A stretch of 64,000 bases of DNA. Source: Fimicolochytrium jonesii (Eukaryota). Where the stretch lies: assembly GCF_025526975.1 (NCBI RefSeq), contig NW_026515678.1:1-64000 (forward strand). Reading direction: 5' to 3'. Positions 1 to 11,428 of the stretch are shown in pieces. Below the pieces are notes generated by a model, which was given only the letters and a program-made list of their open reading frames with translations, did not search any database and had not been told where the DNA came from. A program made the position numbers and the translations under genes. The stretch's first letter is position 1. Each line of letters begins with the position of its first letter.

Positions 1-1613
1 AGGTTTGAACCATGCACCCTCGGTTGTGAATTGAGTATCTTATGCAACTGCGCTATTTGCCATCGATGAAATGCATTGAAAACGTATTCGCCAGATAGGG
101 CGCAGGCTAACCCTAACCAGTATGCGTGCATAGTAGAGTTGTATAGAGTGCGCTATGGGTGTCCGGGGACTATGGGAATTCATCTGTAGGGGGTTCCTAG
201 GTAAAGGACATGTGTATGGACTGGCTTTAATGCATTCCAGGTGGTGTTGGATTTTGAGAAAAGCGTCAATCCTATTTTGTTTTTTGCATTTTCTGCAGCC
301 GTTTACAGCTTAATTGCACATCTGAGATGACTTTAACTATGAGAACATATATCTGGCTACAACTTTCGTTACGCCCACATCGTGTTTCGGGTGGCGCGGG
401 AAAAAGAAAAAAAAAAGTATCCCCAGCAAAACCGGGGTTGGAACTTGGGGCACTAGTTCAGATAACATTAGCACTTGCCACTATGCCAATGTCTGTCGGT
501 TGAATGTTACCTGTGTTTGGTCAGGTCAACCAGACGGCGCAAAATGCAAAATTTTCGAAAATTCTCTAAGTCCCACCCATTGGAGCTTGCGGGTGCCATA
601 GCTCTGTCAATAGTGATTGAATCTCCCTGGTTGCCCTTCCGTACCTATACTATCTTTTGAATCCGCACCATTGCCTTGGATGGCCAAGGTGGAACGGATG
701 ATGTAGTGCATGCGAATGGACACGCACCGCCGGTTTTTCGCATGTTTTGCTTGTAGATCGGCCAAAAACACTTTTTACCTGCACTTCTCAGCTTTTTGAT
801 TGTTTCCTGACACTGTCAAGCAATGCTAGACGTATTTGAAGACATTTTGAAGGAGGAAAAAAAGAAAAGAAGGCCTGGCCCCCTCTGAGAATCAAACCTG
901 CGCCATGAGTCACCAAAATCTTTGAAAATTCTCTAAGTCCCACCCCTGGGGACTTACGTGTGCCATAGCTCCTTCAATAGTCATTGAATCTCCCTGGTTC
1001 CACTTCCGTAACTATATTATCTTTCAAATCCGCACAACTTTCCTCAGGTGTCCAAGGTGGTGCGGATGACATAGTGCATGCAAACGGACATGCACTGCAT
1101 GCTTTTTGCATGATTTGCTGGTTGACAAACACCCTGTCATATCCATGTATTGCAATGCAAAAAGGCATTTGCCATCCTCCACCATCAGGAGGAGCAGTGG
1201 AAGAAAAGAAAGTATTTGGGCCTCAAAAGGATTTGAACATGTAGCAAATTGAGAGCAAACCAAAATGAGTCATTCGCCGCCAACTGGAGAACACCCCCAT
1301 ATTGCCTGGAAACAAAAAGTGCCAGGAGTTGATGAATACTAGAGTAGATGAAGGTTCCTAGATGTTTTTGGGGATGTTTTCTGAGACATATTCCACTTTA
1401 AGCAAATTCCATCCACTCAGAGTTTCAGAAAATGCGTTTTGGTCACATTTTCATAGTAAAAAATCTGAAAAACGGATTTTCCGGGAGCATTGAGTGGAAA
1501 ACATGCCCCAAAATTTTATGTACAGTACAGTAAGACGCCCCTGAACATTGCTAGCACCTATTTTTGACACTTTCCGGACCACCAAATATAACCCATAACC
1601 CGGAACAGTCCTG
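1..1613. mobile_element. Telomere-embedded element family A, copy 1 (partial, cut by window start)
   Basis: Essentially identical to 2262..3875; only a 1-nt indel (tatctttc vs tatcctttc) was noticed. Ends in ...CAGTCCTG directly followed by a TAACCC tract. Confidence 0.8.
557..1270 (+). repeat. Diverged internal direct duplication (period about 367 bp) inside element A
   Basis: GAAAATTCTCTAAGTCCCACCC...GTGCCATAGCTC...CAATAGT.ATTGAATCTCCCTGGTT...AATCCGCAC...CCAAGGTGG..CGGATGA..TAGTGCATGC.AA.GGACA starts at both 557 and 924. The same pair recurs in copy 2. Confidence 0.85.
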
Positions 1614-2274
1614 TAACCCTAACCCTAACCCTAACCCTAACCCTAACCCTAACCCTAACCCTAACCCTAACCCTAACCCTAACCCTAACCCTAACCCTAA
1701 CCCTAACCCTAACCCTAACCCTAACCCTAACCCTAACCCTAACCCTAAGGATCATCAATCCTATGTCGAAGGTATTCGACCGGCCCCCTGAACTCTCGTA
1801 GACCGCATCCTTCGCTGCCATGGTCTCCCAGTAAGCCTTCATCCCGTACTGCACTATCCTAACCATTCCCCCTTCAACGCATTCCGACAAGGTCCCAATC
1901 AGGGTATCCAACGCCACATGCTGTCTGCCCTGAATCGTGCTATTAGGGCTGTCACTCCCCCGCACAATTATTCCATGGTCCCTATATAATCCCTCAATGA
2001 TCCCCTCTCTAACACCCCGACTCGGCGGGATGCTCAGTATGAACGGTTGGCTCACAACCGTAATCCATTCCTTATAGAATGGGTCATCCTTGAACGGCGG
2101 ACGAGCGCCCGCCATTTGGACAATGGTGGACCTATCGAACAGCTGGTTAAGATCAGTTAAACTGATCGTAACCGCCATCCAGTCCACATCGTATTGATAT
2201 GGGTGCATGGTGATATTTATTTTGCCCCCGGAAAAATCCCTCTGTTGTTGTGTCGAACGCAAGGTTTGAACCAT
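1558..2274 (-). CDS. Element A ORF, unknown protein; has no stop before the telomere tract and reads through it as (RV)n
   Basis: About 175 codons of ordinary-looking protein sequence, then AGG GTT repeats; the stop lies in the neighbouring copy. The true start may be the ATG at 2208 (MHPYQYDVDW). Confidence 0.5.
   Translation of the reverse strand: MVQTLRSTQQQRDFSGGKINITMHPYQYDVDWMAVTISLTDLNQLFDRSTIVQMAGARPPFKDDPFYKEWITVVSQPFILSIPPSRGVREGIIEGLYRDHGIIVRGSDSPNSTIQGRQHVALDTLIGTLSECVEGGMVRIVQYGMKAYWETMAAKDAVYESSGGRSNTFDIGLMILRVRVRVRVRVRVRVRVRVRVRVRVRVRVRVRVRVRVRVRVRVRVTGLFRVMGYIWWSGKCQK
1614..1748. repeat. Telomeric repeat tract (CCCTAA)n / (TTAGGG)n, about 22 units, interstitial
   Basis: Perfect TAACCC repeats between two A copies. 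Confidence 0.98.
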
Positions 2275-9680: not shown

Positions 9681-11273
9681 ACATTACTGGCATGCGAGTT
9701 GAAGTGCGAGTTCAGTGCGCCAGGTTGGAATCAGCGGAACAGATGGTTTTGAATCTCCATTTGGACCAGATCGAGACCATTTTCCAGCACATGGGCGCAA
9801 ACTCCTTGAAGCTTGTGCCGGTGGAAGAGTACTACAGTCTCATCAATGGCATCATGGACGCTGCCACCAGAGTTCTATTCAGAGGTGATCGCAATAGACA
9901 GACTACTGTGACAGACTGTCAGCGCTTCCGAGATGTTCTCAACTCTTTTGGTTTCAATCCCGGATGGTTCAAAGGCATTGCACCCGTCATTGATCCTGCT
10001 CGTGCTTGGTGGGGTCATGGGGATGGGGAAGTGCCTGATGCTGCTCCCATTGGCAATATCCGTGAACTCTTCCATCAGCATCGTGATCAGCTTCAATGTC
10101 CCAACTGTGGAGGCTCAGCTTTTCATAGCATTGGCGGTCAGCATCGTTTCCGTCTCCGCTGCGCCAGGTACCCTGAGTGCTGTACGACTTTTGGACAGAA
10201 CCAAGTCCGTGACATGCTTGCGGAAGTCCTTTAGTACTGTTGAGTGTCGTTGATAACTTTACACCAAAACCCTTTTCTGAATGTGCGCTTTTCCAATGTA
10301 CTCTAAATCAATAAATGCAATACTGCTTTCCACTATTTTAAATGTTCCATGACAGAGACAGTTTGGCTGAATTTAATAAGTGATCTGGGAAATCTCTAAC
10401 CCCAACCCTCTCACTCTGCATACCCTGCAAGCAAGCCCAGGTCACGTGCTCTAACCTGCATGGACAAACTGTAGAACACTGCTTTAAACGGAAAATGTTT
10501 AACAGTTTTGGTAAATGACATTCCGCAACGGTCCTACAAACAGTCTACGATGCACAGCGGAATCACAAAATGCTTACTGGAGAACACAGCCAAACCCCTT
10601 TGCCTGCACATACATACTCGTGTCTTTTGTTAGGAGGTCTTGGGGGTCACTACTTGAGAATTGAAAAGGGGCCCTGTTCTTCAGCCAAAAGCAAGGTTAC
10701 ACAAGATTTGCTACCACATCAGCTATGCAAACCATAGGCTACAATCAACTTTCATTAAGTGCCCTCCACTGGATAGTCAGCCAGATGTTGAGATATCACC
10801 ACATTTTCCAACTTTTTACCCCCCGTCGCGTGAAAATTTCGTTTTTCTAAGTTTCTGAAGCCGTTTCCGCACGGATTGCCAATCCGAGAGTACTTCAATT
10901 AGAGAATATGATATGGGGCCAACTTTTAATTAGGACGCCAACTCCAGATCGGCACTAAAAAAATCCCAATTTGCACAAGTCCTATAATCGTATATATAAC
11001 ATATATTTCCCCTTTATATCAACCCCCCCCCTCCCCTATTGGCACCCCTGCCCCCCCCCCCGTACCCGCACCACCACCCATATGACCCATCACTTGCCCT
11101 TGCACACCTAGTCCCCCCTGACTTGCCTAGGTGCGCAACACCCCCCGCCACCACACCCCTCAGAGTCAAGAATTTGAACTGTAGAACACACCCAAAAGCC
11201 AAAAAACCCGAAAATTTCTAAGTCCCTAGGGTTCCAGGCAACCCAAAAATAAAACCCAACCCAGGGGGTCTTG
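9681..11273 (+). mobile_element. Element B copy 4 (innermost; diverged non-coding part)
   Basis: Same structure and termini; many substitutions and indels from about 10240 onward. Confidence 0.85.
9692..10234 (+). CDS. Element B zinc-ribbon protein, copy 4
   Basis: Intact 180 aa with one R>C change near the C-terminus. Confidence 0.75.
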   Translation: MRVEVRVQCARLESAEQMVLNLHLDQIETIFQHMGANSLKLVPVEEYYSLINGIMDAATRVLFRGDRNRQTTVTDCQRFRDVLNSFGFNPGWFKGIAPVIDPARAWWGHGDGEVPDAAPIGNIRELFHQHRDQLQCPNCGGSAFHSIGGQHRFRLRCARYPECCTTFGQNQVRDMLAEVL

Positions 11274-11428
11274 TAACCCTAACCCTACCCTAACCCTAAC
11301 CCTAACCCTAACCCTAACCCTAACCCTAACCCTAACCCTAACCCTAACCCTAACCCTAACCCTAACCCTAACCCTAACCCTAACCCTAACCCTAACCCTA
11401 ACCCTAACCCTAACCCTAACCCTAACCC
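11274..11428. repeat. Innermost telomeric tract (about 25 units); boundary to unique subtelomere
   Basis: TAACCC repeats with one variant; unique sequence begins at AAGACCG. Confidence 0.97.

What the first reader, a model, noticed from the sequence alone, without database searches (positions are those of the whole stretch)
1..11428. Composite telomere built from two families of ORF-carrying elements arrayed head-to-tail inside (CCCTAA)n
Seen: 2 copies of A (2.13 kb), 4 of B (1.6 kb) and 4 mini-copies. Each family keeps a single orientation, each copy is separated by 5-30 telomeric repeats, and the families are segregated (A distal, B proximal). No RT, endonuclease, transposase or RecQ helicase is recognisable in either family. 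Established: similar architecture is known for MoTeR1/2 of Magnaporthe, Athena/Coprina Penelope-like elements, yeast Y' and Drosophila HeT-A/TART. Inference: this is a telomere-resident, non-autonomous element system, possibly undescribed for this lineage. It would be mobilised in trans or amplified by recombination/t-circles, and it supplies much of the terminal DNA.
Basis: partly seen in the sequence, partly recalled or inferred. Interest (0 to 1): 0.88.

Follow-up and report, generated by a model that had tools for sequence, protein, structure and literature searches.

The report
Telomere-stacking rolling-circle DNA element in chytrid
This fungal chromosome end is built from head-to-tail, cut-down copies of two related DNA elements whose shared gene likely encodes a DNA-nicking enzyme of a type known from bacterial plasmids, so it may be a new kind of jumping DNA that attaches itself to telomeres.

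Summary
The array is real as described: 2 A, 4 B and 4 mini copies inside (CCCTAA)n. A and B are not enzyme-less and not unrelated. The A ORF is identical to residues 1-153 of an intact 523-aa uncharacterised Fimicolochytrium jonesii protein, annotated twice on another contig. The B ORF is a 45%-identical paralogue of its residues 246-430. Both are cut by telomere addition on the distal side, and the two genes point in opposite directions. The family keeps D9, D148, Y197 and E249 in the order of the Rep_trans active site. Its predicted fold ranks RepDE or RepSTK1 first in three PDB searches, but with weak scores, and profile comparison with Rep_trans is negative. All 10 proximal junctions share one register (GGGTTA|CARGAC on the G strand). 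Best reading (about 0.5): a DNA element whose Rep_trans-like nickase joins its fixed end to telomeric 3' ends, with this array holding non-autonomous truncated copies. The main rival is passive amplification by recombination, which B4's mosaic sequence shows has occurred. My paper searches found no eukaryotic Rep_trans element. No genome or long reads were available.

The parts
1..1613 (.). A1, proximal 1.6 kb of an A copy (cut by the window start; lacks the ORF)
   Evidence: one indel against A2
1749..3875 (.). A2, distally truncated A element
1750..2208 (-). A ORF: residues 1-153 of the 523-aa family protein, cut by telomere addition; holds D9 and D148, lacks Y197 and E249
2145..2173 (.). 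13-bp hairpin (1 mismatch, TAA loop) inside the A ORF; possible origin, untested
   Evidence: z -4.0, window chosen after seeing it; 0 of 100 shuffles of A; 1 like it in 52.6 kb of unique DNA
2535..2627 (+). 94-bp non-coding segment of A shared with B (71%)
   Evidence: E 5e-6; score 51; best of 200 shuffles 32
2808..3018 (+). A internal direct repeat 1 (about 212 bp), opening with the motif GAAAATTCTCTAAGTCCC shared with B
3175..3387 (+). A internal direct repeat 2 (81% to repeat 1), same motif
4059..4110 (.). mini 1 = last 52 bp of B; starts at the CTAA of the shared motif
4144..4195 (.). mini 2
4244..4254 (+). variant telomeric repeat TAACC-TAGCCC, present 2-3 repeats before all 4 B copies
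4273..5867 (.). B1, distally truncated B element
   Evidence: 4273-4405 matched with no difference by one contig of soil run X1
4273..4826 (+). B ORF: open from the telomere junction, starts at the RxE motif (residues about 242-430 of the family) and ends after a C4 zinc ribbon; lacks D9, D148, Y197
5430..5520 (+). B counterpart of the 94-bp segment shared with A
5794..5867 (+). B proximal end: shared CTAA motif, then the 52-bp terminus joined as TG|TAACCC
5971..6022 (.). mini 3
6106..7701 (.). B2
7795..7846 (.). mini 4
7936..9531 (.). B3 (frameshift near the ORF end; possibly a consensus error)
9681..11273 (.). B4, mosaic: first 500 bp identical to B1, remainder about 94%
   Evidence: Fisher p 4e-10
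11274..11428 (+). most proximal telomeric tract (26 repeats) joined to unique DNA

Best explanation
A and B are distally truncated, non-autonomous copies of two paralogous DNA elements whose intact gene likely encodes a Rep_trans-type tyrosine nickase, which would join the element's fixed end to telomeric 3' ends and so stack copies head-to-tail. Shown: the shared protein family, the truncations, the fixed junction register, the shared non-coding motifs, the opposite gene orientation. Predicted: the Rep_trans-like fold and active site. Inferred: the enzyme nicks the G strand at the proximal junction (GGGTT/ACA or GGGTTA/CA), stays bound to the 5' end of the displaced strand, and a telomeric 3'-OH attacks that bond. 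The copied strand ends in downstream telomeric repeats or breaks, and telomerase caps it. Any piece keeping the proximal end, down to the 52-bp minis, could be moved in trans. Recombination between ends has also reshaped the array.
Confidence: 0.5

Rival explanations
1. Passive subtelomeric amplification: a gene-bearing block (old element, viral relic or host gene) was broken, healed by telomerase and multiplied by recombination, break-induced replication or t-circles, as for yeast Y'. The protein plays no part in movement.
For: B4 mosaic; near-identical B1-B3 and A1-A2; the variant repeat and an 8-10-repeat spacer travel with the mini+B unit in 3 of 3 cases; MoTeR2 arrays expand and contract by breakage at interstitial telomeres (10.1101/845669 section 22 part 1).
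Against: Does not explain why two 45%-identical paralogues with inverted genes both end in the same junction register and share cis motifs, nor the invariant D/D/Y/E residues.
Confidence: 0.25
2. Same Rep_trans-like enzyme, other polarity: it nicks the C strand at CCCT'AA and inserts the element inside the tract; the minis are units cut between TTTCT'AA and TTGT'AA.
For: CT'AA is the conserved Rep_trans/MOBT nick site and occurs in each CCCTAA; minis start at the CTAA of the motif shared by A and B (1 of 5 CTAA sites in B; TCTAAGT occurs 4 times in A+B and 0 times in 52.6 kb of unique DNA).
Against: On the C strand the enzyme-bound 5' end would be the distal end, yet distal ends of A and B are variable breaks inside the gene and only proximal ends are fixed. 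A 4-bp TTAG seed for telomerase explains the mini junction with a single event.
Confidence: 0.12
3. Non-autonomous telomeric retroelements (MoTeR2- or HeT-A-like) copied by a reverse transcriptase encoded elsewhere; the ORF is cargo and the minis are HeT-A-style 5' tags or 5'-truncated copies.
For: Layout matches MoTeR arrays: head-to-tail, fixed proximal ends, distal truncation, telomeric spacers; HeT-A copies carry short tags of the upstream element (10.1101/782904 passage).
Against: No RT in A or B (Pfam, 13 frames of 70 aa or more); both families carry the same nickase-like gene in opposite orientations; no shared RT-bearing partner could be sought.
Confidence: 0.08
4. The copy number and order are partly an assembly artefact (collapsed or expanded repeats).
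For: B3 has an inserted base at the one ORF position where B1/B2 and B4 differ, like a mixed consensus; isolated broken repeats in the tracts; no long reads seen.
Against: Tract lengths differ between all copies; B4 is distinct; the A protein is annotated on another contig; a soil-run contig matches 133 bases of B exactly. An artefact would change counts, not the elements.
Confidence: 0.05

Closest known systems
Rep_trans (PF02486) initiators RepC/RepD/RepDE (pT181 family), RepSTK1, MOBT relaxases; Phage_CRI gpII; archaeal Rep-Arvir
   Same: Predicted TBP-like curved sheet; D, D, Y, E in the same order on strands; VDW-x-x-x-T, K-x-Y-x-R and R-x-E motifs echo motifs N', III and IV; best structural neighbours.
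   Different: No sequence-level match; motif I lacks its R; adds a C4 zinc ribbon and a C-terminal domain; named members are fungal (3 of 18 looked up carry an organism name); sits in telomeric arrays, not plasmids, phages or ICEs.
MoTeR1/MoTeR2 of Magnaporthe oryzae
   Same: Head-to-tail copies within TTAGGG tracts, fixed proximal end, distal truncation and healing, non-autonomous 1.6-1.7 kb members.
   Different: MoTeR1 encodes RT plus restriction-like endonuclease; here no RT, and the gene is a likely tyrosine nickase in either orientation.
Helitrons and Replitrons (eukaryotic rolling-circle transposons; properties recalled, Helitrons)
   Same: Proposed tyrosine-linked single-strand transfer with one fixed end and variable other end.
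   Different: They use HUH-fold enzymes, unrelated to Rep_trans, and are not known to me as telomere-specific; no HUH motif or helicase is present here.
Drosophila HeT-A/TART and Athena/Coprina Penelope-like elements
   Same: Polarised terminal arrays built by serial addition to chromosome ends; short terminal tags.
   Different: Those are RNA-templated by RT; here telomerase repeats persist between copies and the gene is not gag or RT.
Yeast Y' elements (recalled)
   Same: Tandem units separated by telomeric repeats, spread by recombination.
   Different: Y' encodes a helicase; no helicase here.

Membership tests
Rep_trans (PF02486) | Sequence match to the PF02486 or Phage_CRI profile | tested here: not met
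   Pfam: none for 17 family members; HHalign against a 9-sequence Rep_trans alignment probability 0.2 or less. Rep-Arvir is likewise undetectable by sequence.
Rep_trans (PF02486) | TBP-like curved beta-sheet catalytic fold | tested here: inconclusive
Rep_trans (PF02486) | Metal triad D, D, E and catalytic Y, in that order, on beta-strands | tested here: met
   D9 5/5, D148 12/12, Y197 13/13, E249 16/16; strands E7-16, E145-153, E192-198, E246-254. Spatial superposition not available.
Rep_trans (PF02486) | Motif I RxD and motif II T/SxY/ExG | tested here: not met
   Family reads NT[FW]D[IV]G (no R) and G[FY]G[SW]V; motif definitions from PMC5714925.
Rep_trans (PF02486) | Nicks CT'AA in a hairpin loop and forms a 5'-phosphotyrosine | not testable with these tools
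   CTAA is present in every repeat and at the mini junction; one hairpin with a TAA loop lies inside the A gene; activity untested.
MoTeR / CRE-like telomeric non-LTR retrotransposons | RT with restriction-like endonuclease in the element or in a partner with the same termini | tested here: inconclusive
   None in A or B; a partner elsewhere could not be sought.
MoTeR / CRE-like telomeric non-LTR retrotransposons | Head-to-tail copies in telomeric tracts with intact proximal ends | tested here: met
   10 of 10 junctions; MoTeR description.
Athena/Coprina Penelope-like elements | PLE-type RT; hammerhead ribozymes in terminal repeats (recalled) | tested here: not met
   No RT; Rfam scan of 1-13000 gave 2 chance-level hits and no ribozyme.
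Helitron / Replitron | HUH endonuclease | tested here: inconclusive
   No HUH Pfam family and no HUH structure among listed fold hits; conserved residues are D/D/Y/E.
Yeast Y' | Helicase ORF | tested here: not met
   (truncated copies and the 523-aa protein only; an intact element could carry more genes).

The most novel reading that the evidence does not exclude
Fungi harbour an undescribed class of DNA transposons whose Rep_trans-type nickase ligates the element's fixed end onto telomeric 3' ends, extending chromosomes without reverse transcription; this chytrid telomere is a stack of such additions from two paralogous families, including a 52-bp minimal mobile end.
Probability: 0.45. Interest if true: 0.95.

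Novelty: categorically new. Interest (0 to 1): 0.85.

Why it matters
Rep_trans nickases are described as bacterial, with a distant archaeal branch reported in 2026 (PMC13107129 passages), and the telomere-targeted mobile elements I compared are all retroelements or recombination-spread repeats. A eukaryotic Rep_trans-like DNA element that adds itself to telomeres would be a new transposon class and a new route of chromosome-end extension. This locus makes it directly testable: it supplies an intact protein, four candidate catalytic residues, an exact junction and a 52-bp candidate substrate.

Tried and rejected
Whole-genome search: no genome held. Word-seeded protein search with the B ORF: 0 of 60 candidates; only the exhaustive search found the family. 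Of its 23 hits, 6 matched only the zinc ribbon (one fetched, a topoisomerase I; five not fetched) and were left out of the alignments. Relatives were not found in 50,697 phage and 72,556 plasmid records (tblastn), in GTDB genomes (36 candidate stretches, none confirmed) or IMG/VR; the last two rest on short patterns and prove no absence. PDB sequence search: best E 0.23; PHROGs: nothing for P0125; BFVD: no match at E<=0.001. Junction pattern: 0 hits in viral contigs, 1 in JGI metagenomes (L001), which on reading lies in imperfect telomere-like repeats; not aligned further, treated as chance. Sequencing runs: no RNA holder listed, one soil DNA run with 7% of words; its contig's further letters could not be read because the repeat was masked. 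A VIA-align run on the catalytic domain alone never got a slot, so that test is open. The pectate lyase search meant to place the host gave bacterial hits only. Hairpins at the element termini: not supported (z 0.88 and -0.32). Inverted homology between A and B: none above background. Paper searches without a description of such an element: (listings and abstract starts only). The PNAS paper on Athena/Coprina was not held; those features are recalled.

Full report
Observation. The first 11,428 bases hold ten (CCCTAA)n tracts of about 5-30 repeats separating 2 A copies (the first cut by the window start), 4 B copies and 4 minis. A1 and A2 differ by one indel; B1-B3 by 0-1 substitutions; B4 is identical to B1 for 500 bp and then carries 59 substitutions, a mosaic pattern (Fisher p 4e-10). 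The minis equal the last 52 bp of B1-B3. A and B have no significant match in the remaining 52.6 kb. That DNA holds ordinary eukaryotic genes; 3 of 8 window proteins looked up are annotated in NCBI on an 801,127-bp contig. No genome was held.

What the ORFs are. Pfam saw only a weak zinc ribbon in B and nothing in A. An exhaustive phmmer search with the B ORF gave 23 hits; 17 belong to one uncharacterised family and 6 match the zinc ribbon alone. The second hit, P0125 (523 aa, 45% over residues 246-430), is annotated in the chytrid Fimicolochytrium jonesii under two adjacent locus tags on a 459,799-bp contig. Its first 153 residues are identical to the A ORF. So the window most likely comes from that species, A's gene is cut by telomere addition after codon 153, B's gene is the downstream half of a paralogue whose frame is open from the telomere junction, and intact A genes exist elsewhere, probably in tandem. 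A's gene reads toward the telomere, B's away from it. Of 18 family proteins looked up, 3 carry an organism name, all fungi: F. jonesii, Phlyctochytrium arcticum, Tilletia horrida. No relative turned up in phage, plasmid, GTDB or IMG/VR collections.

The DNA ends. All 10 proximal junctions read GGGTTA|CARGAC on the G strand; distal junctions fall inside the gene (A, B) or at a TTAG seed (minis). The ten derive from as few as two events, one per family. A and B share, in the same order and strand, a 94-bp segment (71%, E 5e-6; score 51, best of 200 shuffles 32), the motif GAAAATT(C)TCTAAGTCCC and similar last 35 bp; the termini are telomere-like, which weakens that last test. TCTAAGT occurs 4 times in A+B and never in 52.6 kb of unique DNA. 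A variant repeat precedes all 4 B copies, so flanking repeats were copied with the truncated unit. A 13-bp hairpin with a TAA loop lies in the 5' part of A's gene; pT181 origins lie within rep (PMC5703833 passages), but one comparable hairpin occurs in the unique DNA, so this is a hint.

Mechanism. Cis signals keep their orientation to the telomere while the gene flips, which suits a DNA-level process. The fixed end is the 5' end of the G strand, the end a Rep-type enzyme would hold as a phosphotyrosine; a telomeric 3'-OH could resolve that bond. This inferred model accounts for single orientation, fixed proximal ends, variable healed distal ends, variable spacers and the persistence of a 52-bp terminus. 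The conserved Rep_trans nick site CT'AA (PMC9371924 passages; the motif stands in the fetched pT181 origin) allows the alternative of C-strand nicking in CCCT'AA. Recombination has clearly acted too (B4) and could alone explain the copy number, as in MoTeR arrays (10.1101/845669 sections 3, 20, 22 part 1). An RT-driven origin fits the layout (10.1101/782904 passages) but not the gene.

Novelty. PMC13107129 (passages) treats Rep_trans as bacterial with a distant archaeal branch. Searches for Rep_trans with eukaryotes, fungi or telomeres, Fimicolochytrium with telomeres and target-specific DNA transposons listed no such element; I saw listings and abstract starts, subscription journals, Repbase and Dfam were not searched, and no supplements were read. 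Four earlier AI notes on other fungal genomes propose Rep_trans-like genes at chromosome ends, one with a fixed start joined to many ends. I had written my Rep_trans reading before seeing them; the fixed-start note shaped my choice of polarity. They are unchecked, and no sequence look-alike to P0125 was found among them, so they may be other families.

Verdict. Observation confirmed; interpretation partly supported and extended. Likely a new kind of telomere-resident DNA element with a Rep_trans-like enzyme, seen here as truncated non-autonomous copies. Mechanism inferred (about 0.5); interest 0.85.

Noticed in passing
window 11441-11513: Perfect 26-bp inverted repeat (21-nt loop) 12 bp inside the last telomeric tract, in an ORF that is open from the tract; may mark fold-back repair of the break that made this end.
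   Followed up: partly
window 13060-13170: Reads like the end of a copia-type RNase H (ADIFTK motif, recalled); no Pfam hit.
   Followed up: partly
window 33594-35048 (-): Pectate lyase with a 21/84-bp repeat linker; the best 120 listed relatives of its catalytic part that carry organism names are actinobacterial, mostly Streptomyces (a secreted-enzyme transfer is possible, not tested).
   Followed up: no
window 8436-8437 (B3): One-base insertion exactly where B1/B2 and B4 differ; may be a mixed consensus base.
   Followed up: partly
window 11952-12312, 12452-12582, 18742-18923: Small subtelomeric duplications: 65-bp pair, 25-bp tandem of 5 copies, 91-bp tandem pair.
   Followed up: no
window 2365-2378: A short telomere-like run GCTAACCCTAACCA inside A, upstream of the gene.
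   Followed up: no
window 4273-4405: Matched with no difference by a 151-base contig of soil run X1, suggesting B exists in an independent environmental sample.
   Followed up: partly
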